A stretch of 64,000 nt of DNA from Bacteroidota bacterium (GCA_033854175.1 JAWOKN010000056.1:3736-67735), one strand, 5' to 3'; numbered from the stretch's first letter, positions 2,661 through 47,365 are shown. The notes: generated from the letters alone by a model not told the origin. Translations and numbers: made by a program.

Positions 2661-3344
2661 ATAATCTTTGGACAGGCTCCGACCATCATTCTGAATCCAG
2701 ATGGTGGCGGCCTGCGCCTCCTGCATGAAACGAGCCCTATCCTGTTCCGACGCCGAGAGATGGGCCGGAAGGAACTTCAGTGCGACGAACCATCTGAGCT
2801 TGAACCCTCGCGGCCTTATAGACCACTCCCATGCCCCCTTCGTCCAGCTTCTCAAGAACTTTATACCGTGACAGAGTTCGTCCGATCATGAACATCTCTT
2901 GATGAAATATTGCGATATTCGGCTATTGCGAGAGGCAGGTCGTGAATGAATACCAAATCATCCGCTCTCCGTGATCCTCCCCGGAAACGATTCCCCTAAT
3001 CCACCGAGCGGTGACATAAGTCACCCGGGAATTCCATGATCTTCCGGCAGGACCCTGACGATGTCGGAGTATCCGACCCTTCGGCCCGCCCGAGATGGAT
3101 GACACTGTTGTGCTCCCCCCACAGCCGCGTCATTCTTCCGGCGACCGGAACAAGAAATCAGACAAATGAGTATAGATCGAGTCGTAGCCGTATGATCCAA
3201 CACCCCGGTTTGCCGGCATGAAGAAAACGGGAAGATCTCTGAAGAACGGTGCACGGGGTGCGGCTCTTCACCCAAACAGGTCTCACACTTGAGAGATGTA
3301 GATCCCGATCCCCCCGGAAACCAATCGCACGGGGCAACAGAATA

Positions 3345-3360
3345 TGGTGCGCAATTTGCT
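3345..3360 (+). promoter_or_regulatory. candidate sigma-54 promoter (TGGTGC-N5-TTGCT) upstream of the multiheme cytochrome
   Basis: The GG(-24) and TTGC(-12) core elements are correctly spaced about 94 nt upstream of ATG 3454. The -24 hexamer deviates from TGGCAC at two positions. Confidence 0.3.
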
Positions 3361-3453
3361 CGAACATATGCCGACAGAACCGCGTCCAGATCGGTCGCGG
3401 GTGCGGTCGAAATACCTCATAACATTGCGACCGGAGAGAGAAGGAGTGCGAGT

Positions 3454-5205
3454 ATGGACAAGAATACATATTTTCGCGGAGGCGCCTGTTTTTTTCTGTT
3501 ACCCATTGTTTTCATCCTTTCCCCAACCCACCTACGAGCCCAATCAGCGCTGCCATGCTACGCATGCCACAGCGGGGAGAACGACAACTGGCTGCTCGGC
3601 CGGCATGCAAACACCCAGAAGGACGTCGCAGGCGAGATCGCTGCTAACTGGCAGGGGCAGACGCCAGATTCCGTCATCCACGGCTCGGCTGCGGAGAACT
3701 GTGTAGCATGTCATTCCCCGCTTGCCGTCACGACAAACGGCGGGATGACCGAAACGCAGGTGATGGGACATTACTTCACCACGACCGGCGGTTTCTACAC
3801 TGATTCCACGCAGGCCGCGGATACGGCCAACTGGCCGCATGTCGGCTGCAACACCTGTCATGACGTTCCGTCGAACCATACGAGCCATGTGTTACCGACG
3901 CTTGCGATTTTCAATTCAACGACGGCACAATACGACTCGATGCCGACGACGGCCACGCTCTGCGGACAGTGTCACGGAACGCTGAGATTCGCGGAAACCG
4001 ACCATCGGATATTCGATGCGTGGAAACTCAGCCGGCACGGGCACAGGGGCCAATCGGACGTCGCGGGCGAGCTCGCCGGAAGCTGGGCGGGCAAAACACC
4101 CAATGACGTCATCAACGGGCCCGATGCGGAAAACTGCGTCGCCTGCCATGCTCCGACGGCGGTCGGTCAAAAATCCGGGGACACAACGGAGGTCATGGTC
4201 TTAAGCCGGTTCTTCACGACCTCGGGCGGGCAATTTACTGCAGGAACGGCCCCTTCCGACACGGCCCACTGGCCTGATGTCAGCTGCACCGCATGTCACG
4301 ACCCACATCGGCCGGACACACTTTCGTACTACAACACATCGACGAGGACGTACCAGGTCATGGCCTCATCAAACCAGTTATGCGGCCAATGCCACGGCAA
4401 CCTCAGGTTTGCCGGTACTGACCATTTAAGCTACAACGTGGAAGAAGCCATCGGTGGAGTCGGTGTGGCGGCCCAGGCGACCATGCCCGGCGCCGGGTGC
4501 ACGGATTGTCACATGCACAAGGGTGAAACGGACGGAACAAACTCACTCATGTACAAGGGGCACAGCTGGTCCATCTTCATCCACGAACCGGACAGCAGCA
4601 CAACCGCCTCCTGCACATCATGTCATGCGGGAATGAACGCCGATTCCTCCAAAACGGTCATCGCCGGCTGGAAGGCCGAATTTGCCTCGACGGACTCACT
4701 CGCCCAGTTACGGGTTGCCTCAGCAGACTCGGCGCTGCAGGGAATAACCGATTCCGTCAGGCAGGCATATCTTGCGGAAGCAAAGAGCAACCTGAGTCTT
4801 GCGGAATCGGACGAAAGCGGCGGATTCCACAACCACAAATACAGTATGGCGCTCCTGAACGACGCCATTGCGAAATCGGCACTCATCACCGGAGTAACGA
4901 TGCCGCAGGCGAATCTCCCGCTGCGGTTCGCGTTACATCAGAACTACCCGAATCCCTTCAATCCATCGACCATCATCCGGTATGAGATCCCCCTTGAAAG
5001 CAGAGTGGCCCTGAAGGTCTACAATGTTCTGGGACAGACCGTGGCAATACTGCGGGAGAACGTAGAATCAGCGGGGTACAAAATTGTAGAATGGACTGCG
5101 GCAGGCATGCCAAGCGGCATATACTTCTGTCAGCTCCAGGCAACGAGCACCTCGCATCCCGTCAAGGCCTACAGTCAGGTCATGAAGATGCTTCTTATTA
5201 GATAA
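3454..5205 (+). CDS. nonaheme c-type cytochrome with T9SS C-terminal sorting domain (secreted/cell-surface)
   Basis: ATG 3454 is preceded by AAGGAG. Signal peptide is MDKNTYFRGGACFFLLPIVFILSPTHLRAQS. Nine CXXCH motifs are present (CYACH, CVACH, CNTCH, CGQCH, CVACH, CTACH, CGQCH, CTDCH, CTSCH). The C-terminus NYPNPFNPSTIIRYEIPLESRVALKVYNVLGQ... is a T9SS type-A (Por) sorting domain. Confidence 0.85.
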   Translation: MDKNTYFRGGACFFLLPIVFILSPTHLRAQSALPCYACHSGENDNWLLGRHANTQKDVAGEIAANWQGQTPDSVIHGSAAENCVACHSPLAVTTNGGMTETQVMGHYFTTTGGFYTDSTQAADTANWPHVGCNTCHDVPSNHTSHVLPTLAIFNSTTAQYDSMPTTATLCGQCHGTLRFAETDHRIFDAWKLSRHGHRGQSDVAGELAGSWAGKTPNDVINGPDAENCVACHAPTAVGQKSGDTTEVMVLSRFFTTSGGQFTAGTAPSDTAHWPDVSCTACHDPHRPDTLSYYNTSTRTYQVMASSNQLCGQCHGNLRFAGTDHLSYNVEEAIGGVGVAAQATMPGAGCTDCHMHKGETDGTNSLMYKGHSWSIFIHEPDSSTTASCTSCHAGMNADSSKTVIAGWKAEFASTDSLAQLRVASADSALQGITDSVRQAYLAEAKSNLSLAESDESGGFHNHKYSMALLNDAIAKSALITGVTMPQANLPLRFALHQNYPNPFNPSTIIRYEIPLESRVALKVYNVLGQTVAILRENVESAGYKIVEWTAAGMPSGIYFCQLQATSTSHPVKAYSQVMKMLLIR

Positions 5206-5493: not shown

Positions 5494-7386
5494 TTACATC
5501 ACAAAATGAGACACAACGCCGCCGACAAAAAAGGCCACGACCCAGGTACCGATCCAGATCACCATCCCCTCCCTCCAGCCCCTCTCTTTGAGCATCACCA
5601 TCAGTGAAGCGATGCACGGGACAAAGAGGGTAATGACGATAAGCGAAACGGCAATCTGCATCGGGTTGAGGGACATATGGTACAGACCGGCCGCGCCGAA
5701 ATCTCGGCGGACGACGCCCATAATAAATGCGACAGCGGCCTCCGGGGGCAGCTGGAGCCAGTGGACGACCAGGGGGGTAAGTTCGTGCTCGAGAAGATCC
5801 AGCAAACCGGTAAGCTGTGCGATACCGACCGCGAGTGCGCCCACAAAAAACCAGCCCGAGGCCTCCTTCATGAAATAATATGTCCGGACGGCGGTTTTCC
5901 TGAAGACATTTTCCATACGGGGCAATCTCATCGGCGGGAGATCCAGAAGAAGCGGGGCTGACGAGCCCGGCAGGACCCGGTCGAGCATCGTTCCGATAAG
6001 GACCAGAACGGCAAGGATCACCAGGACATAGACAGCGATCGGGCCCGGGCCCGCACCCGCAAGGAGCGCGGCGATGACGGCCATCTGGGCGGAGCAGGGG
6101 ATGACAAACTGAAGAATTGCGGTGGCAATCGTCTTCTCGCGTTCAGAGCCGAGGAGGCGTGTAGTAATCGTTGCGGAGGTCACGCAGCCGAAGCCGAGAA
6201 TCAGCGGAATGACGGCCCTTCCGTTCAGGCCGAGGTAGGTCAGAATGCGGTCCACCATCGTCGCCAGCCGCGGAAGGTACCCGCTATCCTCCATCAGAGA
6301 AAGAACGATATAGAACGAAATCACGAGCGGAAGCAGAAGAAAAAGAAGATACGTTGTGGTCATGGTCACAACGCCGTAAGGACCGACAAGGAGTGTATAC
6401 CACCATGATGAGGGAGAAATCAGGGTGGCGGTGATCGTGCGGATCCACGGTTCCCAGAGATTGTTACCGATCCGCTGCTCGGTAAAATTCACAACCAGCT
6501 GGGAAACAAACTTTCCGATAAAGAGATAGGCGACATACAATGCGGCGACAAGGATAGGGATCCCCGTGGAGGGCTTCAGGGCCCAGCGGCCGAGCCTGTC
6601 GGAAAACCGTCTTTTCGGGGAAGTATCCTGCATGACCTGGTTCACGAGATAATTCACCCGGTTGCGGCGGCTGATATAAATCTCATCGCGGAGCGTGCCG
6701 GGATTGACGCCGTGGCGCCGGGCGACAAACTGGTCCCCCTCGAGGACCAGCAGGGCCTCGGATTGTGAGCCGACCATGGAAAGGGTCTCATGGAGGTGGC
6801 CGTGGAGTTCCTCGCGCTGGGTCCCCTCGCGGGCGCCCAGGATGGCCTGATCGAGTTTTTCCAGCGTGACGCCGTTCACGGCGGTAACGGGAATGACACT
6901 GACGCCCAAAAAATTCGAAAGCTTCGGAATGTCGATACTGATATGAAAATCCCTCACCTCGTCCATAAAATTCAGCAGCACCGTAATCTTCTTCCCCATA
7001 TCGATCAGCTGCTGGGTCAGAAACAGGTCCCGTTCGAGGTGTGTCGCATCGACAACATTCAGAACAATATCCGCGTCGAGGATGATATCGCGGGCGGCTT
7101 TCTCCTCATCATTAAACGACGAGACCCCATAGATGCCGGGTGTATCGAAGACATCATAATCGCGGTAGGAACCGCAGACAAGTTCGACGGTAGTCCCCGG
7201 ATAATTCGAGACATCGACATTCATACCGGAAAGGGTATTAAAAATGATCGATTTCCCGACATTGGGATTGCCGGCAAGGACAATTTCCACGCGTCCGGTC
7301 TGTTTGCGGGGGGATCTCAGGCCGGGATGCTGGTGTCTATCCGAATGTTCCAGCGGGGGGCGGGATAAAGGATCATCTGGTGTCAT
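5494..7386 (-). CDS. feoB: ferrous iron transporter FeoB
   Basis: N-terminal G-domain (VLAGNPNVGKSIIFNTLSG...NYPGTTVE) followed by a polytopic membrane domain. An alternative GTG start at 7290 would remove a 32-aa N-terminal extension. Confidence 0.9.
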   Translation of the reverse strand: MTPDDPLSRPPLEHSDRHQHPGLRSPRKQTGRVEIVLAGNPNVGKSIIFNTLSGMNVDVSNYPGTTVELVCGSYRDYDVFDTPGIYGVSSFNDEEKAARDIILDADIVLNVVDATHLERDLFLTQQLIDMGKKITVLLNFMDEVRDFHISIDIPKLSNFLGVSVIPVTAVNGVTLEKLDQAILGAREGTQREELHGHLHETLSMVGSQSEALLVLEGDQFVARRHGVNPGTLRDEIYISRRNRVNYLVNQVMQDTSPKRRFSDRLGRWALKPSTGIPILVAALYVAYLFIGKFVSQLVVNFTEQRIGNNLWEPWIRTITATLISPSSWWYTLLVGPYGVVTMTTTYLLFLLLPLVISFYIVLSLMEDSGYLPRLATMVDRILTYLGLNGRAVIPLILGFGCVTSATITTRLLGSEREKTIATAILQFVIPCSAQMAVIAALLAGAGPGPIAVYVLVILAVLVLIGTMLDRVLPGSSAPLLLDLPPMRLPRMENVFRKTAVRTYYFMKEASGWFFVGALAVGIAQLTGLLDLLEHELTPLVVHWLQLPPEAAVAFIMGVVRRDFGAAGLYHMSLNPMQIAVSLIVITLFVPCIASLMVMLKERGWREGMVIWIGTWVVAFFVGGVVSHFVM

Positions 7387-7609
7387 GGGGAACTTCGTCG
7401 ATGACCGTCACGAGAATACTCCGTGCAAGTGTGTGGCCGATAGCGATCTGCTGTCGGTTTTTCTGGAGAACGATGGTTCCGCCCGGGAGGCGTTCCAGGC
7501 ATTTGACGCGCTGCCCTTCATGGATCCCCAGCCGGACGAACTGGGGGTAATAATCGCCGCCGGGGACCGAATGAATCTTCAACAATTGACCGACCTTGGT
7601 TTCGCTCAT
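7373..7609 (-). CDS. feoA: ferrous iron transport protein FeoA
   Basis: FeoA SH3-like domain (VGQLLKIHSVPGG...RLGIHEGQRVKCLERLPGGTIVL...IAIGHTLARSILV). The ORF track starts at 7678 (GTG), which is upstream of the predicted sigma-54 transcription start. ATG 7609 (MSETKVGQ...) or 7645 is more plausible. Confidence 0.8.
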   Translation of the reverse strand: MSETKVGQLLKIHSVPGGDYYPQFVRLGIHEGQRVKCLERLPGGTIVLQKNRQQIAIGHTLARSILVTVIDEVPHDTR

Positions 7610-7686
7610 AGAGACGGGTTTCTTGCGGCTCTTCTTGTCAGTCATGATATCATATCGATTAAATTCAAACATACTCACCTATTATC

Positions 7687-7702
7687 GGCAATTATTGTGC
7701 CA
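7687..7702 (-). promoter_or_regulatory. sigma-54 promoter (TGGCAC-AATAA-TTGCC) driving feoAB
   Basis: Minus-strand sequence CCGATTTGTGGCACAATAATTGCCGATAAT matches the -24/-12 consensus perfectly. It sits between the PLP-enzyme stop (7811) and feoA. Confidence 0.6.
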
Positions 7703-7728
7703 CAAATCGGATAAATCTATCCAATATT
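7703..7728. promoter_or_regulatory. palindromic operator ATCGGATA-N4-TATCCAAT abutting the -24 element (copy A)
   Basis: CAAATCGGATAAATCTATCCAATATTTC is near-identical to the 26-bp perfect palindrome at 45231..45256. In both copies it sits 1-3 bp upstream of TGGCAC. Confidence 0.55.
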
Positions 7729-7810
7729 TCAGATAAGGATTCCGCAAATCCGCAGACGGGGGAGGGAATGCCTATCATCTTTGATAAAACGAAAATCACA
7801 CGGAAACCGA

Positions 7811-9139
7811 TCAGAGTAAAGAGAGTGCTTTCTGAAGATCATAAATGATATCCTCGGGATCCTCGAGGCCGATGGAAAGGCGCAGACCGCCCGGATCGAG
7901 TCCCCTTTCGAGCTGTTCGTCGAGCGGGAAAGCCGAATGCGTCATCGAGCTCGGATGTTCGACCAGAGTTCTGATCTGGCCGAGGCTGACTGCAAGGGTA
8001 ATCGTATAGGCATTATGGGCGAGGGCATTAATAAACCTTTCGCCCTGGTCGTGCCGTTCCTTCGGTGTAGAACCGTGGAGGACAAAATAGAGGAGTGTGC
8101 CGGGGGAGAAATTCCCCTTATAGTCGCGCATCTGTTTCCGGGCAAGTTTAAACTGCGGAAACGAGGGTAATCCGGGATACCGGACGAAGGCGACGCGGGG
8201 CTCCTTCCGCAGGAATTCAGCCACCCGGTAGGTGCTCTCGATCTGCTGGCGGATACGGGTTGAAAGACTCGGGAGGCCATAGACCAGTATAGGCCAGGCG
8301 CTCTTAGCTGACAGTGTGCCGCCGAAATCCTTCCGGTAAAGGAGGAGCCGGTCATAGGACCAGCGGGGACCGACAACGACGCCCCCCATATCGGTGCCGA
8401 AACCGCAGATCCCCTTTGTAAGAGAATCGACGACAAAATCGGCACCCAATGTCAGGGGACGCTGGCAGAAGGGGGTGGCGAAGGTATTATCGATGACCAG
8501 ATAGATCTTCCTTTCGGGGGATCTCCGGCGGTTCGCGCGGCGGATAATGCCGGCAATCGCGCCGATATCGATAAGATCCAGAGTCGGGTTCACGGGGGAC
8601 TCAAAATAGACGACGCGGGTGCGGTCGGTGATCTTCCGTTCAAGGTTTGCGGGTTTTCTCAGATCGACATAGGCCGTAGTGATCGTATACCGCGGGTACC
8701 AGTTAAGGAGAAGCGAATAGGTACAGCCGTACAAAACGGGGTGGGCGATAATTTCATCGGCGGTGCCGGTAAGTGTGCCGAGGACGGCCGAGATGGCTGC
8801 CATACCGGTCGCAAAAGTCACGGCCACCTCGCCCTGTTCGGCGTCGGCGAGGTTTTCCTCGAGGATCTCCTTATTCGGTTCGCCGAGGCGGTCATAGATA
8901 TAGATCGGGGCGCACGATGCAATCTTTCTGATTCCGTCGTGGTGGGCGAACTCTGCGAACCCCTGAGCGCCGCGCCGGGCGGTATCGAGGCGGAACGTCG
9001 AGGAGGAGGAAAGGGGCGGGACGACATGGTGGTTATAGTCCCACTTCTTGCTCGAGGCCTTTCCATAAATAAGGCGCGTCTGCATTGAATACGGGCGCGC
9101 CTGATGTTTTTTACCTTTCTTCGGGCGTAAGGATTTCAT
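7811..9139 (-). CDS. Cys/Met-metabolism PLP-dependent enzyme (cystathionine gamma-synthase/O-acetylhomoserine sulfhydrylase/methionine gamma-lyase family)
   Basis: Fold-type I PLP enzyme with the DSLTKGICGFGTDMGGVVVG lysine motif. TRLIYGK...HHVVPPLSSSSTF is typical of the trans-sulfuration family N-terminus. It overlaps the upstream gene by 4 nt (ATGA). Confidence 0.75.
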   Translation of the reverse strand: MKSLRPKKGKKHQARPYSMQTRLIYGKASSKKWDYNHHVVPPLSSSSTFRLDTARRGAQGFAEFAHHDGIRKIASCAPIYIYDRLGEPNKEILEENLADAEQGEVAVTFATGMAAISAVLGTLTGTADEIIAHPVLYGCTYSLLLNWYPRYTITTAYVDLRKPANLERKITDRTRVVYFESPVNPTLDLIDIGAIAGIIRRANRRRSPERKIYLVIDNTFATPFCQRPLTLGADFVVDSLTKGICGFGTDMGGVVVGPRWSYDRLLLYRKDFGGTLSAKSAWPILVYGLPSLSTRIRQQIESTYRVAEFLRKEPRVAFVRYPGLPSFPQFKLARKQMRDYKGNFSPGTLLYFVLHGSTPKERHDQGERFINALAHNAYTITLAVSLGQIRTLVEHPSSMTHSAFPLDEQLERGLDPGGLRLSIGLEDPEDIIYDLQKALSLL

Positions 9140-19660: not shown

Positions 19661-20060
19661 GATCTTGAACGCCAATAAAATGATGAGTCCCAGTACCAGT
19701 TTGTGGGGCGTCAATTAACATGCCAGTTCTTTGAGGGTTTTAGGCTGGTTACAAATGAAATTTGAGGAAATGCGGGATTCAAGCTTTCAAGAGTGAGAAT
19801 CGCTCCTGACGGGGCTTTCAGCGGTGATAATCAAAAAACGGCATGAATCAGAAAGATCGGATATCACGCCGGAAGGGATGAAAGAAGGGGAAAAATCCGG
19901 ATACTGGACCTTGGGAAAATTTTCCCGGATGGAAACAAAACAGTGTCTTTCATCGTTTAAAAGTAACAAACCGAAGGATGAAATTTTCAACACCGGGTGT
20001 TTGGAAATGCATCAAAAAAAACAGTACATTGAAAAAATTCTGAACCAGGAGATCCACTAC

Positions 20061-24002: not shown

Positions 24003-25370
24003 CTAGACCAGGCCCTGATCCATCATAGCATCAGCGACCTTCAGGAAGCCGGCGATATTGGCACCGTTCACATAATTGCCCGGTGTGCCAAAGCGTTCGG
24101 CCGTCTCAAAGGCAGCCTTATGGATACTCTTCATGATGCCATGGAGGCGCTGATCGACCTCTTCGCGCGTCCAGGACAGGCGCATGCTGTTCTGGGACAT
24201 CTCCAGGCCGGATGTGGCAACACCGCCCGCATTGGCGGCCTTGCCCGGACCATAGAGGATCTTGGCATCGATGAACTGCTTCACGCCCTCGATCGTCGTC
24301 GGCATATTCGCGCCTTCGGCGACCACATAAACGCCGTTCTTCAGAAGATTCGCGGCATCCTTGCCGTTGATCTCATTCTGCGTGGCGCTGGGGAACGCGC
24401 AATCAGCCTTATGATTCCAGAGCGGGTTGTAATCGAGCTTCGGATCGACCGGAGTATAGGTGGAGCCTTTAAAGGCGTCGGTATATTCCTTGATCCTGCC
24501 GCGGCGAACATTCTTCAGGTCCATGATGAACTTCAGCTTCTTATCGTCGATACCTGCTTCATCGTAGATATAGCCTGCCGAATCCGACGCCGTGACGGCT
24601 TTTCCGCCGAGCTGGTTGATCTTCTGGATCGTATACTGCGCGACATTGCCGCTTCCGGAGACGAGGCATTTTTTACCCTGGAGGGTCTGCTTGCGCGTGG
24701 TGAGCATTTCCGCCGCGAAGTAGACCGCGCCGTAGCCCGTGGCCTCTGGCCGTATGAGGGAGCCGCCCCAGTTGAGGCCCTTGCCCGTAAGGACGCCGGT
24801 GAACTCGTTGCGGAGGCGTTTATACTGGCCGAACAGAAAACCTATCTCGCGGCCGCCGACGCCGATATCGCCTGCCGGAACATCGGTATCAGGGCCGATA
24901 TGGCGCTGCAGCTCGGTCATAAAGCTCTGGCAGAACCGCATGACCTCGGCATCGCTCTTGCCCTTGGGATCAAAATCGGAACCGCCCTTGCCGCCGCCCA
25001 TGGGAAGGGTGGTCAGGGAGTTTTTGAAAACCTGTTCGAACGCCAGAAACTTCAGGATGCCGAGATTCACCGATGGATGGAACCGCAGGCCGCCCTTATA
25101 CGGGCCGAGGGCGCTATTCATCTCGATACGGAAACCGCGGTTGACCTGGATCTCACCGCGATCATCCGACCAGGGAATGCGGAACATCAGAACGCGTTCC
25201 GGTTCGACGATACGTTCCATAATTTTCGCCGAACGATATTCCGGATACCGGTCGAAGACAAGCGACAACGACTCGACGACCTCCTCGACTGCCTGGAGGA
25301 ATTCCGGCTCGTTGGGATTTTTTGCTTTAACCATTGCCATGAGGTTCGCTGCATAACCTGACATGAACAT
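24003..25370 (-). CDS. gdhA: NADP-specific glutamate dehydrogenase
   Basis: Classic GdhA N-terminus with motifs spread through the sequence (GGGKGGSDFDPKGKSD, GKAANAGGVA). Length 455 aa. Confidence 0.9.
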   Translation of the reverse strand: MFMSGYAANLMAMVKAKNPNEPEFLQAVEEVVESLSLVFDRYPEYRSAKIMERIVEPERVLMFRIPWSDDRGEIQVNRGFRIEMNSALGPYKGGLRFHPSVNLGILKFLAFEQVFKNSLTTLPMGGGKGGSDFDPKGKSDAEVMRFCQSFMTELQRHIGPDTDVPAGDIGVGGREIGFLFGQYKRLRNEFTGVLTGKGLNWGGSLIRPEATGYGAVYFAAEMLTTRKQTLQGKKCLVSGSGNVAQYTIQKINQLGGKAVTASDSAGYIYDEAGIDDKKLKFIMDLKNVRRGRIKEYTDAFKGSTYTPVDPKLDYNPLWNHKADCAFPSATQNEINGKDAANLLKNGVYVVAEGANMPTTIEGVKQFIDAKILYGPGKAANAGGVATSGLEMSQNSMRLSWTREEVDQRLHGIMKSIHKAAFETAERFGTPGNYVNGANIAGFLKVADAMMDQGLV

Positions 25371-25764
25371 AAACTTTCTCCTCTGTTGATGGTGAATTAA
25401 CTCTGTAATTTATTGCCGATGACAAACCCCCGACCAGAAAAACCGGAAAGACCTGATGAACTCCGGAACACACTTTCTCAACGGCAAGGTACAACCGATG
25501 ACGCGCAAATTCGATTCAACTTTTATGCCATGGGCCCCTTTGGAGGACTGATTTTAAACTTTACTTCCATGATACGGAATTTCCCCCACTCTCGAAAATG
25601 AGAAATCGGGGAAAGGCTCTTCTTATCTCTGAGAATGAAGATCAGGTGTAAATCCAACTATTGATGTATGTTATGTCAATGCCGGGCGACGGATACCCGC
25701 TACCCACTTCCCGGCGGGAAGACCGCTGAGAAGTCACCGGGAGCGTCAGAAGATCCGCGGTCAT

Positions 25765-36087: not shown

Positions 36088-36332
36088 CCCGCCGCGAACA
36101 GGCTGGACGGGGGTACCGCTCACCCGGGGGTGTACAGGGGTGGGCGGTAGTTATTCGGGGTGGGGGTGATCCGGTAAAACCACCTTTAACCATTTTGTGA
36201 TAAAATCCCCGAATTCATTTCAAATCTGATAACTCCGGGGGAAAAGACGGGCCGGAGAGAAGCCAAATCTCCGTTTTTCAGTATCATCTCAACCCCCTTT
36301 ATGGCACGAGAATTGACGATAACGGAAATGGT

Positions 36333-37982
36333 ATGAAGGCATTCCGTTCGCTCAGTGTGAGGGTATTTGCGGGGTCATTTCTCCTCCTTGTGACCCTCCT
36401 GGGGCTCTATTCCTATTTTGCGATAAAGTTTCACACCGAACAGATGATGGAGATCGTCCTGGGAAACGCAAGCCGCATCAGCGACATCATCAAGAACTCG
36501 ACCCACTACAGCATGCTCCTCAACAGGAAGGAGGACGTCTACCAGACGATCCTCACCATCGGCAAGGAAAAGGGGGTTGAAGGGATACGGATTTACAACA
36601 AGCGGGGAGAAATCATGGCCTCCTCCCGCACCGAAGAAAAACTGCAGATTGTCGACATGCATGCTGAAGCCTGTTACGTCTGCCATGAGAAGGGAAAACC
36701 CCTGGAATCGCTCGCATCGGACAACAGGATGCGGATCTACACCTCCCCGAAGGGGTACAGGGTACTGGGTTTGATCAACCCCATCCACAACGAGCCAAGC
36801 TGTTCGAATGCCGATTGCCATGCTCATCCGCCTGATAAAACCATACTCGGTGTACTCGACGTTCGGATGTCGCTGGAAAACGTCGACACGGCAATCGCCG
36901 AAGCGCACGCCAAGATGATCAGCTGGGCGGTCGGGGGAGTTCTCCTTGCATCGCTCCTCATCTCGGTCCTCCTCTACAGAACCGTGCATCGGCCCGTCAA
37001 GCGGCTCACGCTGGGGACGCATGAAGTCTCCTCCGGCAACCTCGATCTCCGGATACCCATACACTCGAAGGACGAACTGGGGCAGCTTGCCGAATCGTTC
37101 AATTCGATGACGACCTCATTGCGCAACCTCATTGAAGAGAAAAACACCTGGTCGCGCGAGCTGGAGGAGCGGGTCCGTGAAAAAACCGCCGAGTTGAAGC
37201 ACATTCACGAGCAGATCCTGCAGATTGAAAAGATGACATCGCTCGGGAAGCTCGCGGCGACCGTTGCGCACGAACTGAACAACCCCCTGGAAGGGATCCT
37301 GACCTACGCGAAGCTCCTGGCGAAGCAGCTCAGGAAAGCCGAATTCTCTGCGGACCGGTCAAAGGAATTTCTCGAGGAACTCAATCTCATCATCCAGGAA
37401 ACGGACCGGTGCGGAACGATCGTGAAGAACCTCCTCCTCTTTTCCCGGAAGCAGGTCGGCGAATTCGCGCTTGCGCCTGCGCGGCAGATCGTGGAGAAGG
37501 CCCAGCGTCTCGTGGATCACCACTTCCACATCTCCAACGTGAAATTCGAGGCCACGTACGCGCCTGAGGACGTGTCGCTCATGTGCGACGAAATGCAGAT
37601 CCAGCAGGCCTTGATTGCGCTCTTTGTCAACGCGGTTGAAGCCATGCCGGGGGGCGGCACACTGCGCGTCGATGTCTCGCAGCGTTCGAAGGATGACAAC
37701 ATCATCCTCCGCATTTCGGACACCGGTACGGGGATAGCGGAGGAGGATCTCCACAACATCTTCGAACCATTTTTCACAACAAAAAAGGAGGGTCAGGGTG
37801 TCGGCCTCGGCCTCTCGGTTGTCTACGGCATCGTCGTCCGTCACGGCGGCACGATCAGTGTGGAGTCGAGTCTCAACAAGGGAACGGCATTCACGCTGAC
37901 CTTCCCGGCGCTTGAGCGGAGCACCAAGGGAATCCCGGAGCCGGAGGCGAAAAAATCACCCATTGATCCACACTATGCATAA
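36333..37982 (+). CDS. sensor histidine kinase with periplasmic CXXCH (putative c-type heme) sensor domain
   Basis: TM1, then a ~165-aa periplasmic region containing CYVCH and CSNADCH, then TM2 (ISWAVGGVLLASLLISVLLY), a HAMP domain, HisKA (LAATVAHELNNPL) and HATPase_c (DTGTGI...GQGVGLGL). Confidence 0.85.
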   Translation: MKAFRSLSVRVFAGSFLLLVTLLGLYSYFAIKFHTEQMMEIVLGNASRISDIIKNSTHYSMLLNRKEDVYQTILTIGKEKGVEGIRIYNKRGEIMASSRTEEKLQIVDMHAEACYVCHEKGKPLESLASDNRMRIYTSPKGYRVLGLINPIHNEPSCSNADCHAHPPDKTILGVLDVRMSLENVDTAIAEAHAKMISWAVGGVLLASLLISVLLYRTVHRPVKRLTLGTHEVSSGNLDLRIPIHSKDELGQLAESFNSMTTSLRNLIEEKNTWSRELEERVREKTAELKHIHEQILQIEKMTSLGKLAATVAHELNNPLEGILTYAKLLAKQLRKAEFSADRSKEFLEELNLIIQETDRCGTIVKNLLLFSRKQVGEFALAPARQIVEKAQRLVDHHFHISNVKFEATYAPEDVSLMCDEMQIQQALIALFVNAVEAMPGGGTLRVDVSQRSKDDNIILRISDTGTGIAEEDLHNIFEPFFTTKKEGQGVGLGLSVVYGIVVRHGGTISVESSLNKGTAFTLTFPALERSTKGIPEPEAKKSPIDPHYA

Positions 37983-37997
37983 CCTCACAGAAAACGT

Positions 37998-39344
37998 ATG
38001 AACAACGATATATCCATACTCATTGTCGACGATGAAAAGGTCGTCCGCGAATCCCTCTCGAAGTGGTTCAAGGAAGACGACTTCATCGTGGGCGCATCAG
38101 AAAACGCGGCTGAAGCCCTGAAACAGCTCCAGGTGCGGAAATGGGACATCATTCTCCTCGACATCAAAATGCCGGGGATGGACGGGATGGAGTTACAGCA
38201 GCGAATCCGGGAGATCGACCCCGGAGCGACGATCATCTTCATCACGGCGCACGCCTCGGTCGACACGGCGGTCCAGGCCCTGAAGGCGGGGGCGTTCGAT
38301 TACATCGCGAAGCCGATCGACCCCGACTACCTGTCGCATCTGATCCAGAACGCCATCAAGCAGCGGATCCTGACGGGAGAAAACATCCGTCTGAAGGAGC
38401 AGATCACCGAATTCGCGAAAGTCGATGAGATCATCGGCGACTCCCCGCAGATGAAGAAGGTCTTCGAACTGATCGAAACGGTGGCAAAGACCGACACGAC
38501 GGTCATGATCCGGGGCGAAAGCGGAACGGGGAAGGAGCTCATCGCGCGGGCGATTCACGGCAACAGCGAACGGCGGTATTTTCCCATCGTCGCCATCAAC
38601 TGCGGGGCATTGCCGGAGGGAATACTGGAAAGCGAACTCTTCGGTCATGAGCGGGGTGCGTTTACCGGGGCGCAGTACAGGAGAAAGGGAAAAATCGAGC
38701 TGGCCGACGGCGGCACATTATTTCTTGACGAGGTCGGCAACATCGGGATGAAGACCCAGATGGACCTCCTCCGTGTAATCGAGACAAAGCAATTTTCGCG
38801 TGTCGGGGGAAACGAGCTGATCAAGGTGGACTTCAGGACCATCTGCGCGACAAACAGGGATCTCGAGAAGGCCGTTCAGGAGGGCACCTTCCGTGAAGAC
38901 CTCTATTACCGTCTCAACGTCTTCTCCGTCCTCGTCCCCCCCTTGCGCGAGCGGAAGTCGGACATCCCCCTGCTGGCAAATTACTTTTTGAAAAAATACT
39001 CGCGATCGATGGGGAAGCCGATCGTGACCATCTCCTCGGACGCGATGGATCTGATGGTCAAATACAACTGGCCCGGGAACATCCGCGAGCTGGAAAACGC
39101 GATAGAGCGGGCGATGGTGGTCGGAAAGCCCCCCTGCATCAAGGCGGTGGATCTGCCGATACAGTTCTCCGATCTCATTGCGGCACCTTCGCTCGGATCT
39201 CTGGCATCGATGGAAAAAAGCCACATCGCCGAGATCCTCCGGATGAACAACTGGAACATCTCCCGGTCCGCGGAAGTCCTGCAGATCGACCGGGTCACTC
39301 TCTACAACAAGATCGAAAAATATGGCCTGAAAAAGCCGCAGTGA
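37998..39344 (+). CDS. sigma-54-dependent response regulator (NtrC family: REC + AAA+ + HTH)
   Basis: REC domain (ILIVDDE...DIILLDIKMPGMDG), AAA+ domain (GESGTGKELIARAIH, GAFTGA) and a C-terminal Fis-type HTH. Confidence 0.9.
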   Translation: MNNDISILIVDDEKVVRESLSKWFKEDDFIVGASENAAEALKQLQVRKWDIILLDIKMPGMDGMELQQRIREIDPGATIIFITAHASVDTAVQALKAGAFDYIAKPIDPDYLSHLIQNAIKQRILTGENIRLKEQITEFAKVDEIIGDSPQMKKVFELIETVAKTDTTVMIRGESGTGKELIARAIHGNSERRYFPIVAINCGALPEGILESELFGHERGAFTGAQYRRKGKIELADGGTLFLDEVGNIGMKTQMDLLRVIETKQFSRVGGNELIKVDFRTICATNRDLEKAVQEGTFREDLYYRLNVFSVLVPPLRERKSDIPLLANYFLKKYSRSMGKPIVTISSDAMDLMVKYNWPGNIRELENAIERAMVVGKPPCIKAVDLPIQFSDLIAAPSLGSLASMEKSHIAEILRMNNWNISRSAEVLQIDRVTLYNKIEKYGLKKPQ

Positions 39345-44772: not shown

Positions 44773-45228
44773 ATGAGCATATTTTTTAGCCGTCAATGCG
44801 AGTACGCCCTTCAGGCGGTCATGTACATCGCCCTCAAACCGGAGAACGAGATGAGTTCGATCCGCGAGCTGTCGCGGACGCTCGGCATCCCGTATCATTT
44901 CCTTGCAAAAATCCTCCAGGACCTCACGCGGAAAGGATTGCTGACATCCCTGAAAGGTTCCACCGGCGGGTACATGCTTGCGATGCCGAAGGAAACCATC
45001 ACACCGTTCCACATCGTCGATGCCATTGACGGATCAAGTTTTCTGAACAATTGTCTCCTCGGTTTTTCATCCTGCTCAAGCGAAAAACCGTGCGCGTTGC
45101 ATTCCCAATGGGAGGGTATGCGGGAGAAACTCAATACCATGCTGAAATCGACCAACATCTATGAGGCGGCGCTCAGCATGAAGAAACCGCAATATCTCCA
45201 TAATCAACCCGGGCCAAGCACCACCTGA
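44773..45228 (+). CDS. Rrf2-family transcriptional regulator with three-Cys Fe-S ligand motif (IscR/NsrR/RirA-like)
   Basis: N-terminal winged helix-turn-helix (YALQAVMYIALKPENEMSSIRELSRTLGIPYHFLAKILQDLTRKGLL), then C-x6-C-x5-C (CLLGFSSCSSEKPC). Confidence 0.8.
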   Translation: MSIFFSRQCEYALQAVMYIALKPENEMSSIRELSRTLGIPYHFLAKILQDLTRKGLLTSLKGSTGGYMLAMPKETITPFHIVDAIDGSSFLNNCLLGFSSCSSEKPCALHSQWEGMREKLNTMLKSTNIYEAALSMKKPQYLHNQPGPSTT

Positions 45229-45230
45229 TG

Positions 45231-45256
45231 AATATCGGATAAATCTATCCGATATT
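45231..45256. promoter_or_regulatory. 26-bp perfect palindrome AATATCGGATA-AATC-TATCCGATATT (copy B), abutting a sigma-54 -24 element
   Basis: 11-bp perfect arms. It lies 2 nt after the Rrf2 stop codon and is homologous to the feoAB-promoter copy at 7703..7728. Confidence 0.55.
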
Positions 45257-45271
45257 GGCACAGATGTTGCA
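45256..45271 (+). promoter_or_regulatory. sigma-54 promoter (TGGCAC-AGATG-TTGCA), perfect consensus
   Basis: Exact -24/-12 elements, upstream of the NapH-like/methyltransferase/OsmC gene string. Confidence 0.65.
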
Positions 45272-45522
45272 CTACTAGAGCTGAAGAAATACAAAGGCCG
45301 GTTCTTCCCTCTGTATTAGAGACCTTTTTGATCATCAGAAGAATCCCTTTTTTAAGAATGAGAAATCAGCAGTTTACGGCTATAAGAAGTGACACCGTGC
45401 CCCCTCCTTCCGCTGCATTTGCCGTTGCACCGCAAAATGGACTATCCCCGTATAAAGCCGAAGGCGCCAGGTCCGGGCGTCTGAGTATAAAAAAGCTCTC
45501 ACCCGCGCTCCGCAAACCGAAA

Positions 45523-46578
45523 ATGGGTTACCGGAACGAAACAGGCATACGCCGAATCCTCCTGAGGCTCAGGGAAGATTCACAGTTCCTCCGTTCGGTC
45601 ATACAGACAGCGTTCCTGCTGCTTTGCATCTGGATCGGGATAGAGTTCTATTTATTCGTGAAATGGGGTGCCTCGGGAGGTGTGGAGGCCTATCATATGC
45701 GGCCTCCCGGTGTGGAAGGATTTCTGCCGATCAGCGCTCTGATCAGCCTGAAATATTTCCTGCAGACCGGCATCATCAACAGCGTCCATCCCTCGGGATT
45801 ATTCATCTTCGCAGCGATTCTGGTAATAGGATTTTTCTTTAAAAAAGCCTTCTGCAGCTGGCTCTGTCCGATCGGCACAATAAGTGAATCCCTCTGGACC
45901 TTCGGCCGGAAACTCTTCGGGAAAAATATCGTCCTACCCCGATGGCTCGATTATCCGCTCCGTTCCATCAAATACCTGCTCCTGTTGTTTTTTGCCTACA
46001 TCATCTGGAGCATGAGCATCGATGGCCTCCAGTTTTTCATACAAAGCCCGTACAACCAGGTAGCAGACGTCAAGATGTACTACTTTTTCGCACGGATCAG
46101 CACCTTTGCCCTCTGGACCATCATCATCCTTGCGATCCTGTCGGTCTTCATCAAAAACTTCTGGTGCCGGTATCTCTGTCCCTACGGAGCGCTCCTGGGC
46201 ATCACCGGATTATTCAGTCCGTTAAAGATCACGCGGAATACGACAACATGCATCGACTGCGAACTCTGCACGAAAGTCTGTCCGGCCAGCATCAGGGTCC
46301 ACGCGCTGAAGAAGGTGAGAAGTGATGAATGCATGAGCTGTCTTGAATGCGTGCAGATCTGTCCGGTAAAAAACACACTTGAAGTTCAGCCCCCCGCGGG
46401 GAACGCGAAAGTCCCCGGATGGATCTTCGGGCTTCTCGTCGCCGGGGTATTCGTCGGGATCACCGGTCTTGCGATGCTCGCCGGGCACTGGCAGAATTCA
46501 ATCACAAAGGCAGAATACCTGAACCACTTCCGGAACATCGAATCCCACGTCTATTCCCATGAAGACGCGATCCGATAA
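45523..46578 (+). CDS. NapH/MauN-like membrane polyferredoxin (4Fe-4S binding)
   Basis: CSWLCPIG and CRYLCPYG membrane CxxxCP motifs, plus CIDCELCTKVCP and CMSCLECVQICP ferredoxin motifs. An alternative start is at 45328. Confidence 0.7.
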   Translation: MGYRNETGIRRILLRLREDSQFLRSVIQTAFLLLCIWIGIEFYLFVKWGASGGVEAYHMRPPGVEGFLPISALISLKYFLQTGIINSVHPSGLFIFAAILVIGFFFKKAFCSWLCPIGTISESLWTFGRKLFGKNIVLPRWLDYPLRSIKYLLLLFFAYIIWSMSIDGLQFFIQSPYNQVADVKMYYFFARISTFALWTIIILAILSVFIKNFWCRYLCPYGALLGITGLFSPLKITRNTTTCIDCELCTKVCPASIRVHALKKVRSDECMSCLECVQICPVKNTLEVQPPAGNAKVPGWIFGLLVAGVFVGITGLAMLAGHWQNSITKAEYLNHFRNIESHVYSHEDAIR

Positions 46579-47365
46579 ATCTCTCCGGGCGTTTTACGAC
46601 ACTCTGGCGCCGGACTACGACCTGATGACGGCATTCAACGATCGCGTCGCGAGAGAGGAGGAATTCTTCCGTTTCCTTGCAAAAAAATATCACATTCGCA
46701 CCGCAATCGATGCAGGCTGCGGGACGGGAGTTCACTCGATACTTCTTGCCAGGCTGGGCGTGAAGGTCACTGCTGTGGACATATCGCGGAAAATGATCAC
46801 GGCGACGAGAGCCAATGCACAAAAATTTCACCTCCCGATAAGAGGAGTAGAATCGTCATTCGGTGAAATGGCAAAAAAATTGGATACCGTCGCCGACGCC
46901 CTCTTTTGCATGGGAAATTCCCTGGCGCACATGCTGACGGAGGAGGAATTACTCGACAGCCTGGCAAATTTCCGTGCACTCCTCAGGCCGAAGGGACTTT
47001 TGGTACTCCAGCTGGGAAATTACGACCGAATACTCAAAGAGAGGGCACGTCTGCAGCATGTGAGGGATTCCGGAGGAAAAAGCTTCGTGCGATCGTACTG
47101 CTACCTTCAATCTTTAATATCCTTCAGTATAGATATCAAGACTTCAGCCAGGGGGAGAACATTGAAGAACATCAGAATAAAGCTGAACCCAATCCGCAGC
47201 GGATATCTTCAAAGGCTCCTCATCCGGTCAGGATTCACAGTGATGGCAGAATACGGAAGCCTGCAAAAGGAGCCATTTTCGAAGGGTAGGTCGCGCGATG
47301 TAATCATCCTGGCCAAAAAGGCATACATGCGAATCTTTTCCTCATTTCCTGCATCATATAGATGA
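46559..47365 (+). CDS. class I SAM-dependent methyltransferase
   Basis: AIDAGCGTGVHSILLARLGVKVTAVDIS is SAM-binding motif I. It overlaps the preceding gene by 20 nt. Confidence 0.75.
   Translation: MKTRSDKSLRAFYDTLAPDYDLMTAFNDRVAREEEFFRFLAKKYHIRTAIDAGCGTGVHSILLARLGVKVTAVDISRKMITATRANAQKFHLPIRGVESSFGEMAKKLDTVADALFCMGNSLAHMLTEEELLDSLANFRALLRPKGLLVLQLGNYDRILKERARLQHVRDSGGKSFVRSYCYLQSLISFSIDIKTSARGRTLKNIRIKLNPIRSGYLQRLLIRSGFTVMAEYGSLQKEPFSKGRSRDVIILAKKAYMRIFSSFPASYR

What the first reader, a model, noticed from the sequence alone, without database searches (positions are those of the whole stretch)
7687..7728. feoAB is driven by a perfect sigma-54 promoter with a palindromic operator fused to its -24 element
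On the minus strand, TGGCAC-AATAA-TTGCC sits between the upstream gene stop and feoA. A 26-bp palindrome (ATCGGATA-AATC-TATCCAAT core) lies 3 nt upstream of TGGCAC. A sigma-54-dependent ferrous iron transporter is unusual, since feo genes are normally sigma-70/Fur-controlled. A palindrome centred near -40 is positioned like a repressor or anti-activator rather than a distal enhancer. The predicted transcription start (~7676) falls inside the ORF-track feoA start, which moves the true start codon to 7609 or 7645.
Basis: seen in the sequence. Interest (0 to 1): 0.75.

Follow-up and report, generated by a model that had tools for sequence, protein, structure and literature searches.

The report
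Sigma-54 feoAB promoter with Rrf2 operator
In this uncultured Ignavibacteria-like bacterium the ferrous-iron importer genes feoAB appear to be switched on from a sigma-54 promoter with its own upstream enhancer, and switched off by an iron-sulfur (Rrf2-type) regulator whose binding site abuts that promoter; this wiring has not been described for feo genes, but every part of it is of a known kind.

Summary
TGGCAC-AATAA-TTGCC lies at 7702..7687 (minus strand). An 8-4-8 palindrome lies at 7725..7706, 3 nt upstream.

The same palindrome plus TGGCAC-N5-TTGC recurs at 45231..45271, directly after the stop codon of an Rrf2 regulator gene.

Relatives keep the design. Four lineages (FeoB 69-81% identical) have the palindrome 3-4 nt (1-4 nt across all operator-promoter fusions seen) from TGGCA-N6-TTG upstream of feoA, in otherwise unconserved spacers. 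Two more have only the sigma-54 element.

A second palindrome, TnTCA-N4-TGAnA, sits 77 bp upstream of the -24 element (about -103). It recurs in front of six other sigma-54-type promoters in the window, and its distances across the window and related loci differ by whole helical turns. It looks like the enhancer. An NtrC-type activator and its kinase are encoded in the window.

The proximal 26-bp palindrome tracks the Rrf2 gene in six lineages. In one it overlaps the -10 of a sigma-70-type promoter for Rrf2, a repressor position.

Best model: an enhancer-binding protein activates feoAB and the Fe-S Rrf2 protein represses it. This gives the same logic as FNR plus Fur in E. coli, with different parts. 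All of it is inferred from sequence. rpoN, the transcription start and protein binding are untested.

The start-codon proposal is only partly right: 7609 is not conserved, so 7672 or 7645 is more likely.

The parts
7687..7702 (-). Sigma-54-type promoter of feoAB: -24 TGGCAC (7702..7697), -12 TTGCC (7691..7687). Predicted transcription start is about 7676.
   Evidence: Conserved as TGGCAT/C-N5-TTG(C/A/T) in L162, L163, L164 and L165.
7703..7728 (-). 26-bp operator palindrome (core ATTGGATA-GATT-TATCCGAT, 7725..7706), centred about -39 and ending 0-3 nt from the -24 element. Candidate Rrf2 binding site.
   Evidence: PWM score 35.5 against a shuffle maximum of 13.6. Conserved in L162, L163 and L164, with a symmetric GGATA/TATCC to GGACA/TGTCC change in L164.
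7772..7787 (-). Enhancer-like palindrome TTATCAAAGATGATAG, centred 77 bp upstream of the T of TGGCAC (about -103). Candidate binding site for the enhancer-binding protein.
   Evidence: Same distance (77) in L162, L163, the window HK promoter and the L124 HK promoter. The motif occurs 9 times in the window against 0.78 expected, and 7 of the 9 copies precede a sigma-54-type element.
7373..7672 (-). feoA. FeoA domain from residue 23 of the 101-aa ORF. Likely start is ATG 7672 or ATG 7645, not GTG 7678 and probably not 7609.
   Evidence: Pfam FeoA, E = 1.7e-10; the N-terminal extension stays in frame, shows synonymous changes against L162, and codon 7609 is TTA in L162.
5494..7386 (-). feoB (630 aa), overlapping the end of feoA.
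   Evidence: TIGR00437 feoB, 359 bits, above its cutoff.
44773..45228 (+). Rrf2-family regulator (151 aa) with invariant C94, C101, C107 and H110, which align with the IscR cluster ligands. It belongs to no named equivalog.
45231..45256 (+). Second copy of the operator, a perfect 11-4-11 palindrome AATATCGGATAAATCTATCCGATATT. It starts 3 nt after the Rrf2 stop codon and its last base is the T of TGGCAC.
   Evidence: PWM score 39.7. Orthologous copies in L122, L168/L169 and L170.
45256..45271 (+). Second sigma-54-type promoter, TGGCAC-AGATG-TTGCA, for the NapH-like ferredoxin / methyltransferase genes.
   Evidence: Conserved in L122 (TGGCATAATAGTTGCG), L168 and L170.
45358..47365 (+). Downstream target genes: a membrane 4Fe-4S protein of the NapH/MauN type (gene call 45358..46578) and a SAM-dependent methyltransferase (46559..47365).
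36218..36317 (+). Promoter region of the kinase/activator operon: enhancer-like palindrome TTTCAAATCTGATA (36218..36231), then 77 bp downstream TGGCACGAGAATTGAC (36302..36317).
   Evidence: The 16-mer is identical in L122 and L124.
36333..39344 (+). Histidine kinase (36333..37982, with CXXCH-type motifs in its periplasmic domain) and NtrC-type sigma-54 enhancer-binding response regulator (37998..39344, with GAFTGA). Candidate activator pair for the feoAB promoter.

Best explanation
feoAB is transcribed from a sigma-54 (RpoN) promoter: -24 TGGCAC at 7702..7697, -12 TTGC at 7691..7688, predicted start about 7676.

Activation. An NtrC-type enhancer-binding protein binds the palindrome TTATCAAAGATGATAG (7787..7772), centred 77 bp upstream of the -24 element (about -103), and loops to the closed complex. 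The most likely activator is the kinase/response-regulator pair at 36333..39344. Its own sigma-54 promoter carries the same palindrome at the same distance.

Repression. The 26-bp palindrome fused to the -24 element (7728..7703, consensus AATATCGGATA-N4-TATCCGATATT, centre about -39) is the operator of the Fe-S-type Rrf2 regulator encoded at 44773..45228. A bound Rrf2 dimer covers about -52 to -27. That would block the upstream edge of the sigma-54 holoenzyme footprint, or the approach of the activator, so Rrf2 represses. Loss of its cluster through iron or Fe-S shortage, or through NO or O2 damage, would release it.

Second target. The same operator-promoter fusion directly after the Rrf2 stop codon (45231..45271) controls a NapH-like ferredoxin/methyltransferase operon.

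The net effect is an AND gate: activator signal present AND Fe-S regulator off. This is the same logic as FNR-activated, Fur-repressed feoABC in enterobacteria, built from non-homologous parts.

What is shown: the motifs, their statistics, their conservation, their phasing, and the co-localisation of operator and Rrf2 gene. What is inferred: sigma-54 dependence, which proteins bind, the direction of regulation and the signals.
For: - Motif statistics. Exact TGGCACN5TTGC occurs 3 times against 0.15 expected. Two of those copies are each preceded by the same 20-mer palindrome, which is expected 0.00 times.
- Conservation upstream of feoA. L162, L163 and L164 keep palindrome + 3-4 nt + TGGCAT-N5-TTG. 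L165 keeps a perfect TGGCACAAAACTTGCC. L171 has TGGCCTTGGATTTGCT.
- Footprint. In an ungapped three-genome alignment, identity is 56% in the enhancer block, 69% in the operator and 64% in the promoter, against 5-14% in the spacers.
- Activator present. An activator with GAFTGA, Sigma54_activat and HTH_8 domains is encoded in the window.
- Enhancer motif. TnTCA-N4-TGAnA occurs 9 times against 0.78 expected. Seven of the 9 copies have a sigma-54-type element 57-97 nt downstream, against 3% of random positions (P about 7e-10). Across the window and related loci the distances are 66/67, 76/77, 97-99, 107 and 130, and differ by whole helical turns.
- Operator tracks the Rrf2 gene. It lies right after the stop codon in the window, L122, L168/L169, L170 and L171. 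It lies right before the start codon in L127, as a hit not used to train the PWM (score 27 against a shuffle maximum of 13.6), where it overlaps the -10 of TTGACA-17-TAATAT.
- Gene neighbourhood. In L171-L174 feoAB lies next to the Rrf2 gene.
- Regulator features. The Rrf2 protein has an invariant recognition helix and invariant C94/C101/C107/H110, which align to the IscR ligands.
- Operator size. An 11-N-11 inverted repeat is typical of Rrf2 sites (PMC5015018).
- Negative checks. No sigma-70-type promoter, Fur box or Rfam element was found upstream of feoA.
Against: - No rpoN gene is in the window and the rest of the genome could not be searched.
- No transcription start or binding data exist.
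- The C of the -12 GC is lost in several orthologous promoters (TTGA or TTGT in L162, L163, L168, L170 and the HK promoter), which is unusual for sigma-54.
- The Rrf2-downstream promoter has no recognisable enhancer within 140 nt.
- L165 and L171 feoA promoters lack the operator. L167 lacks the sigma-54 element.
- Operator-like sites also occur 134-150 nt upstream of the HK promoter in L122 and L124, a position that does not fit simple occlusion.
- Repression versus co-activation cannot be decided from sequence.
- Assigning the enhancer to the local activator rests only on presumed autoregulation.
Confidence: 0.6

Rival explanations
1. The promoter is sigma-54-dependent, but the proximal palindrome is a co-activator or architectural site. 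The bound protein (Rrf2 or another) bends the DNA between enhancer and promoter and helps the activator reach sigma-54, as IHF does at many sigma-54 promoters, or acts as a second activator, as BosR does at Borrelia rpoS.
For: The site lies between the enhancer candidate (about -103) and the promoter, where architectural factors usually sit. A second, metalloregulator-family activator at a sigma-54 promoter has a precedent (PMC3037356).
Against: The spacer to the -24 element varies from 1 to 4 nt, which is poor for face-dependent bending. The Rrf2-downstream promoter has the operator but no enhancer. In L127 the same operator overlaps the -10/+1 of a sigma-70-type promoter, a classic repressor position.
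Confidence: 0.15
2. The palindrome is bound by some other protein, such as the enhancer-binding protein itself at an unusually close site or an unlinked regulator, and its adjacency to the Rrf2 gene is incidental.
For: No binding data exist. Operator arms vary (TATCC/TGTCC, TCGGAT/TCAGAC) while the Rrf2 recognition helix is invariant, so there is no protein-DNA covariation. Operator-like sites occur upstream of the HK/activator operon in L122 and L124.
Against: The operator is adjacent to the Rrf2 gene in six lineages and in two different arrangements, downstream and upstream. A distinct, helically phased palindrome already fills the enhancer role. A -40 site is too close for a looping activator.
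Confidence: 0.12
3. The TGGCAC-N5-TTGC match is not a working promoter. feoAB is transcribed from a sigma-70-type promoter or by read-through from the upstream PLP-enzyme gene, and the conserved block is only a regulator site.
For: rpoN was not observed. The -12 C is not conserved in L162 and L163. feoA follows a co-directional gene. One of the three exact matches in the window is intragenic and probably chance.
Against: GG and TTG are kept at fixed spacing in five to six lineages amid diverged spacers. An enhancer sits at a phased distance, and the same pairing occurs at six other promoters in the window. An activator gene is in the window. No sigma-70-like promoter was found in 7300..8000.
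Confidence: 0.08
4. The palindrome acts as an RNA or DNA hairpin, for example a terminator or insulator at the end of the upstream gene, rather than as a protein-binding site.
For: Both window copies lie downstream of co-directional genes. The second copy folds at -13.3 kcal/mol (z = -4.4). L164 shows a symmetric, stem-preserving change.
Against: The feoA copy folds at only -6.8 kcal/mol (z = -1.15, 28 of 200 shuffles as good), and neither copy has a U tract. The sequence, not just the pairing, is shared between unlinked loci and genomes. In L127 it lies inside a promoter upstream of a gene.
Confidence: 0.04

Closest known systems
Enterobacterial feoABC control (Fur repression plus FNR/ArcA/RstA activation)
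   Same: The same operon type and the same apparent logic: one input that turns the Fe(II) importer on under the right redox or environmental conditions, and one iron-status repressor at the promoter (PMC5519574).
   Different: There the promoter is sigma-70-type, the repressor is Fur on a Fur box, and the activator is FNR or ArcA. Here there is no Fur box and no sigma-70-type promoter. Instead there is a -24/-12 promoter, an enhancer about 100 bp upstream and an Rrf2-type operator.
Fe-S cluster Rrf2 regulators (IscR, RirA, NsrR, RsrR)
   Same: A winged-helix Rrf2 domain, three conserved Cys plus a His that align with the IscR ligands, a long inverted-repeat operator, a repressor-type position, and control of iron/Fe-S-related genes. 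RirA represses iron-uptake genes (PMC5015018).
   Different: The protein scores far below the NCBIfam cutoffs for IscR, RirA, NsrR, CymR and the SUF regulator, and phmmer against solved IscR gives only E = 1.7e-9. The operator (AATATCGGATA-N4-TATCCGATATT) is unlike, from my recollection, the published IscR, NsrR or RirA boxes. It is fused to a sigma-54 -24 element, which I found described for no Rrf2 protein.
BosR at the sigma-54-dependent rpoS promoter of Borrelia burgdorferi
   Same: A metalloregulator-family protein binds at a sigma-54 promoter in addition to the NtrC-type activator, adding a second layer of control (PMC3037356).
   Different: BosR is a Fur/PerR homologue, binds direct repeats and acts as an activator. 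Here the protein is Rrf2-type, the site is an inverted repeat abutting -24, and a repressor role is more likely.
NtrC/AtoC/ZraR-type two-component enhancer-binding systems
   Same: A receiver domain, AAA+ domain (GAFTGA) and Fis-type HTH regulator next to its kinase. A palindromic upstream site about 100 bp from a -24/-12 promoter. Probable autoregulation.
   Different: It is below every equivalog cutoff (best AtoC, 473 bits against a cutoff of 714). The TnTCA-N4-TGAnA site matches no published activator box that I know of (from memory, not checked against the literature here). Its apparent regulon spans feoAB, PFOR, an alanine-dehydrogenase-like gene and a multihaem cytochrome.

Membership tests
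Sigma-54 (RpoN)-dependent promoter | -24 GG and -12 GC elements with fixed spacing (TGGCAC-N5-TTGC) | tested here: met
   Exact match at 7702..7688 (minus strand). Three exact matches in the window against 0.15 expected.
Sigma-54 (RpoN)-dependent promoter | Promoter elements conserved at orthologous loci while the flanks diverge | tested here: met
   TGGCA-N6-TTG is kept in L162, L163, L164 and L165, with a weaker form in L171. Caveat: the -12 C is replaced by A or T in L162 and L163.
Sigma-54 (RpoN)-dependent promoter | A bacterial enhancer-binding protein (AAA+ with GAFTGA) in the genome | tested here: met
   ORF 37998..39344: Sigma54_activat E = 9e-71, GAFTGA motif, HTH_8.
Sigma-54 (RpoN)-dependent promoter | An upstream activator site about 80-150 bp away on a fixed helical face | tested here: met
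   The TnTCA-N4-TGAnA centre lies 77 bp upstream of TGGCA at feoA in three genomes and at the HK promoter. Other promoters show 66/67, 97-99, 107 and 130. Seven of 9 motif copies precede a sigma-54-type element, P about 7e-10.
Sigma-54 (RpoN)-dependent promoter | An rpoN gene present in the genome | not testable with these tools
   No RpoN box in the six-frame translation of the window. Presence is inferred from the activator gene.
Sigma-54 (RpoN)-dependent promoter | Transcription starts about 12 nt after the -12 element and depends on RpoN and an activator | not testable with these tools
   Needs 5'RACE or dRNA-seq and genetics.
Rrf2-family Fe-S regulator with its operator | The regulator carries the Rrf2 winged-helix domain | tested here: met
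   PF02082 E = 1.5e-30. TIGR00738 108.5 bits against a cutoff of 73.3.
Rrf2-family Fe-S regulator with its operator | Conserved cluster ligands (three Cys, plus or minus His/Asp/Glu) | tested here: met
   C94, C101, C107 and H110 are invariant in 13 homologues down to 60% identity, and align with the positions of IscR Cys92/98/104/His107.
Rrf2-family Fe-S regulator with its operator | A long inverted-repeat operator (about 11-N-11) | tested here: met
   Perfect 11-4-11 at 45231..45256. PWM consensus AATATCGGATAAATTTATCCGATATT. The 11-3-11 repeat is described as characteristic of Rrf2 sites in PMC5015018.
Rrf2-family Fe-S regulator with its operator | The operator co-localises with the regulator gene across genomes | tested here: met
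   Adjacent to the Rrf2 gene in the window, L122, L168/L169, L170, L171 and L127. The L127 and L171 sites were not in the training set.
Rrf2-family Fe-S regulator with its operator | The protein binds the operator and binding depends on the cluster | not testable with these tools
   Needs EMSA or footprinting with the holo and apo protein.
IscR / RirA / NsrR / CymR (named Rrf2 equivalogs) | Score above the curated equivalog cutoff | tested here: not met
   IscR 71 against 207.6; SUF regulator 68.9 against 110.7; RirA 59.3 against 193; NsrR 50.8 against 182; CymR 42.8 against 195. It is therefore an unnamed Rrf2 subfamily.
Fur-controlled feo operon | A Fur box overlapping a sigma-70-type promoter upstream of feoA | tested here: not met
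   The best match to the 19-bp Fur box is 12/19, and 23% of shuffles do as well. No sigma-70-like promoter in 7300..8000.
Feo ferrous iron transporter | FeoA domain protein followed by FeoB (G-domain, Gate domains and FeoB_C) | tested here: met
   Pfam FeoA, FeoB_N, Gate and FeoB_C. TIGR00437 359 bits against a cutoff of 315.65.

The most novel reading that the evidence does not exclude
A lineage-wide rewiring in Ignavibacteria-like bacteria. An uncharacterised Fe-S Rrf2 subfamily takes the place of Fur as the iron-status repressor of feoAB, and does so by sitting directly against the -24 element of a sigma-54 promoter. A haem-motif histidine kinase and its enhancer-binding partner take the place of FNR and also drive a broad sigma-54 regulon of iron-rich anaerobic metabolism (PFOR, multihaem cytochrome, alanine-dehydrogenase-like gene). 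This would be the first described Rrf2 repressor of sigma-54 closed-complex formation or activator access.
Probability: 0.35. Interest if true: 0.65.

Novelty: new variant of a known kind. Interest (0 to 1): 0.5.

Why it matters
Feo is the main bacterial Fe(II) importer. Its control has so far been described through Fur with FNR, ArcA or RstA at sigma-70-type promoters.

If this is correct, an abundant, mostly uncultured anaerobic lineage reaches the same two-input logic with entirely different parts: sigma-54, an enhancer-binding two-component system and an Fe-S Rrf2 repressor. That would be a clear case of non-orthologous replacement in a core homeostasis circuit.

It would also supply a predicted operator and first regulon members for an unnamed Rrf2 subfamily. 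It would provide a natural example of a repressor fused to a sigma-54 -24 element. And it gives a testable enhancer motif for a broad sigma-54 regulon in Ignavibacteria-like bacteria.

The parts themselves are all of known kinds, so the advance is in regulatory architecture, not a new mechanism class.

Tried and rejected
- The inverted-repeat tool on 7600..7820 returned nothing. The arms share only a 5-bp exact seed, so direct pattern search was used instead.
None was followed by a TGGCA-N6-TTG(C) -24/-12 element (two chance TGGCA matches only).
- The metagenome-contig scan with the composite pattern gave 34 stretches, essentially all chance. The one look-alike (L135) has no ORFs nearby.
- Protein-DNA covariation: the Rrf2 recognition helix is invariant, so operator variants (TATCC against TGTCC) could not be tied to protein changes.
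- Rfam gave only a sub-threshold sRNA hit on the opposite strand, so there is no riboswitch or leader.
- The Fur box scan was not significant.
- The sigma-70 promoter scan upstream of feoA found none.
- Literature searches for sigma-54 or RpoN with feo, Rrf2 or Ignavibacterium found no precedent.
- Terminator/hairpin reading rejected: weak fold, no U tract, and sequence conserved across unlinked loci.

Full report
**What is in the sequence.** Read on the minus strand, the 138-nt gap between a Cys/Met-metabolism PLP enzyme gene (7811..9139) and the FeoA ORF contains three elements. TGGCAC-AATAA-TTGCC lies at 7702..7687. A 3-nt spacer follows. The palindrome ATTGGATA-GATT-TATCCGAT lies at 7725..7706. 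FeoA and FeoB are confirmed by Pfam and NCBIfam. Exact TGGCACN5TTGC occurs three times in the 64-kb window against 0.15 expected. The match at 57261 lies inside a repeat-protein coding sequence and is taken as chance.

**A second copy next to an Rrf2 gene.** The palindrome has one other copy in the window, at 45234..45253. As the 26-mer AATATCGGATAAATCTATCCGATATT it begins 3 nt after the stop codon of a 151-aa Rrf2-family regulator (44773..45228). Its last base is the T of the second exact TGGCAC-AGATG-TTGCA (45256..45271). Downstream are a NapH-like membrane 4Fe-4S protein and a methyltransferase. Only the palindrome arms and the -24/-12 positions are shared between the two copies, so this is not a recent duplication.

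**Source and relatives.** The Rrf2 protein is found exactly on a contig of MAG GCA_037917075.1. Its homologues and those of FeoB are labelled Bacteroidota, Ignavibacteriae or Ignavibacteriales MAGs. I fetched orthologous loci for both genes.

**Conservation at feoA.**
- L162 (FeoB 81% identical): ATACGATAATTTTATCCGGC-TTC-TGGCATGGTAATTGAG.
- L163 (69%): ATCGGATATTTTTATCCGAT-TGA-TGGCATACAAGTTGTG.
- L164 (74%): ACGGACAAATTTGTCCGAT-TTTG-TGGCATGTAAGTTGCG. Both arms change symmetrically, GGATA/TATCC to GGACA/TGTCC.
- L165 (71%): a perfect TGGCACAAAACTTGCC, but no operator.
- L171: TGGCCTTGGATTTGCT, no operator.
- L167 (68%, low GC): no sigma-54 element, but a TAAGGATAAAATCATCCTTA palindrome.

In an ungapped alignment of the window, L162 and L163 anchored on TGGCA, three-way identity is 69% in the operator and 64% in the promoter. 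It is 5-14% in the surrounding spacers. The -12 C is not always kept (TTGA, TTGT), which is a weakness in the case.

**An enhancer candidate.** The same alignment exposes a third conserved block, a palindrome centred exactly 77 bp upstream of the T of TGGCA: window TTATCAAAGATGATAG (7787..7772), L162 TTCTCAAACGTGAGAG, L163 TTATCATTTTTGAGAA. The generalised motif TnTCA-N4-TGAnA occurs 9 times in the window against 0.78 expected. Seven of the nine copies have a sigma-54-type element (GG, TG, at least 8 of 11 consensus positions) 57-97 nt downstream, against 3% for random positions (binomial P about 7e-10). These elements precede:
- feoA;
- the kinase/activator operon, whose TGGCACGAGAATTGAC 16-mer is identical in L122 and L124;
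- an alanine-dehydrogenase-like gene;
- PFOR;
- a multihaem cytochrome;
- an unassigned site at 28927.

Across loci the centre-to-TGGCA distances are 66/67, 76/77, 97-99, 107 and 130. They differ by whole helical turns. This is the expected signature of an enhancer-binding protein acting on sigma-54. An NtrC-type activator (GAFTGA, Sigma54_activat E = 9e-71, HTH_8) and its kinase are encoded at 36333..39344. Because their own promoter carries the motif at 77 bp, they are the most economical candidates. That assignment is an inference.

**Who binds the proximal palindrome.** A symmetrised PWM built from ten sites has the consensus AATATCGGATAAATTTATCCGATATT. It scores 19-40 on the training sites, and the best score in shuffled windows is 13.6.
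- It found a non-training site in L127 (score 27), immediately upstream of the Rrf2 gene (64% identical). There it overlaps the -10 hexamer and the start of a TTGACA-17-TAATAT promoter. This is a textbook autorepressor arrangement.
- In L171 (Rrf2 62% identical) operator-like sites flank the Rrf2 gene on both sides, and feoAB lies directly beside it.
- Together with the window, L122, L168/L169 and L170, the operator is adjacent to the Rrf2 gene in six lineages and in two arrangements.

The regulator has an invariant recognition helix (IPYHFLAKILQDL) and invariant C94, C101, C107 and H110, which align with the IscR cluster ligands. It is far below the cutoffs for IscR, RirA, NsrR, CymR and the SUF regulator, so it belongs to an unnamed Fe-S-type Rrf2 subfamily. 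An 11-N-11 inverted repeat is the usual form of Rrf2 operators (PMC5015018).

**Mechanism.** With the C of TTGC at -12, the start is about 7676, the operator spans about -52 to -27 and the enhancer is at about -103. A dimer on the operator would abut or overlap the upstream edge of the sigma-54 holoenzyme and lie in the path of the looping activator. The spacer to TGGCA varies from 1 to 4 nt. That variation fits steric repression better than face-dependent co-activation. The L127 arrangement also points to repression.

I therefore favour this model: the activator turns feoAB on; holo-Rrf2 turns it off; cluster loss through iron or Fe-S shortage, or NO or O2 damage, relieves repression. In more distant relatives the Rrf2 gene heads a cluster with DUF2249, DUF1858, COX1-like, cytochrome c and hemerythrin genes. 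The signal could therefore be nitrosative or oxidative rather than iron alone, and I cannot discriminate between these.

The logic parallels FNR-activated, Fur-repressed feoABC in enterobacteria (PMC5519574). No Fur box, sigma-70-type promoter or Rfam element is present upstream of feoA.

**Rivals.**
- A co-activator or architectural role, like IHF, or BosR at Borrelia rpoS (PMC3037356), is not excluded.
- A different binding protein is possible, because there is no protein-DNA covariation.
- A hairpin or terminator role is unlikely. The feoA copy folds at -6.8 kcal/mol (z = -1.15), there is no U tract, and the sequence is shared across unlinked loci.
- A non-functional sigma-54 look-alike is unlikely given the conservation and the enhancer pairing.

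**Start codon.**
- GTG 7678 would lie upstream of the predicted start.
- ATG 7672 is at +5. L163 and L164 have an ATG at +4 and L162 at +8.
- The N-terminal extension stays in frame and shows synonymous changes between the window and L162.
- The codon at 7609 is TTA in L162.

The conserved start is therefore 7672 (near-leaderless) or 7645, not 7609.

**Novelty and limits.** Searches of the held literature found no sigma-54-dependent feo operon and no Rrf2 operator at a sigma-54 promoter. All components are of known kinds, so I rate this a new variant of a known kind, of moderate interest. Everything rests on sequence comparison. The following remain untested: rpoN and fur in the genome, the transcription start, protein binding and the direction of regulation. 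The Rrf2-downstream promoter lacks a visible enhancer. Operator-like sites far upstream of the HK promoter in L122 and L124 remain unexplained.

Noticed in passing
window 3281-3360, 19725-19829, 28853-28942, 36218-36317, 39953-40043: A set of sigma-54-type promoters, each preceded by TnTCA-N4-TGAnA at 57-97 nt. They lie upstream of a multihaem cytochrome (TGGTGCGCAATTTGCT, 3345+), an alanine-dehydrogenase-like gene (TGGCATGTTAATTGAC, 19725-, with two upstream sites), an unassigned site (TGGAATAGTTCTTGCA, 28927+), the kinase/activator operon (36302+) and PFOR (TGGAATGATTCTTGCA, 40028+). This suggests a broad sigma-54 regulon of iron-rich anaerobic metabolism.
   Followed up: partly
window 36333-37982: The histidine kinase upstream of the sigma-54 activator has a periplasmic domain between two hydrophobic segments. 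That domain carries CYVCH (a CXXCH motif) and CSNADCH motifs, so it may be a c-type haem sensor for redox state or Fe(II).
   Followed up: no
window 25515-25530 (minus): TGGCATAAAAGTTGAA lies 144 nt upstream of a glutamate-dehydrogenase-like ORF (24003..25370). It is a further sigma-54-type promoter, without the TnTCA-N4-TGAnA motif.
   Followed up: no
L122 1367-1392; L124 1359-1384: High-scoring operator-like 26-mers lie 134-150 nt upstream of the kinase/activator sigma-54 promoter, beyond its enhancer. No equivalent exists in the window. Their role is unknown.
   Followed up: partly
L171-L174 (7485-16292); L127 (10001-16255): In relatives with 62-64% identical Rrf2, the regulator heads a cluster of genes: Fer4_5 protein, methyltransferase, COX1-like, DUF2249, cytochrome c, DUF1858/TusA and FeS_assembly_P. 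In L171-L174 feoAB is immediately adjacent. This content hints at an NO/O2 or Fe-S-repair regulon.
   Followed up: partly
L169 (GCA_037917075.1 contig JBAIWV010000274.1): The same MAG carries a second DHODH-like + Rrf2 contig whose Rrf2 is only 78% identical to the window's. This indicates a strain mixture or bin contamination.
   Followed up: no
window 57247-57261 (minus): The third exact TGGCACN5TTGC lies inside a glycine-rich repeat (BNR-like) coding sequence. It is probably a chance match.
   Followed up: partly
window 3289-5205: A multihaem cytochrome (MtrC/MtrF-like domains) with a C-terminal Por/T9SS sorting domain. This is consistent with an FCB-group (Ignavibacteria-like) metal-respiring organism.
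   Followed up: no
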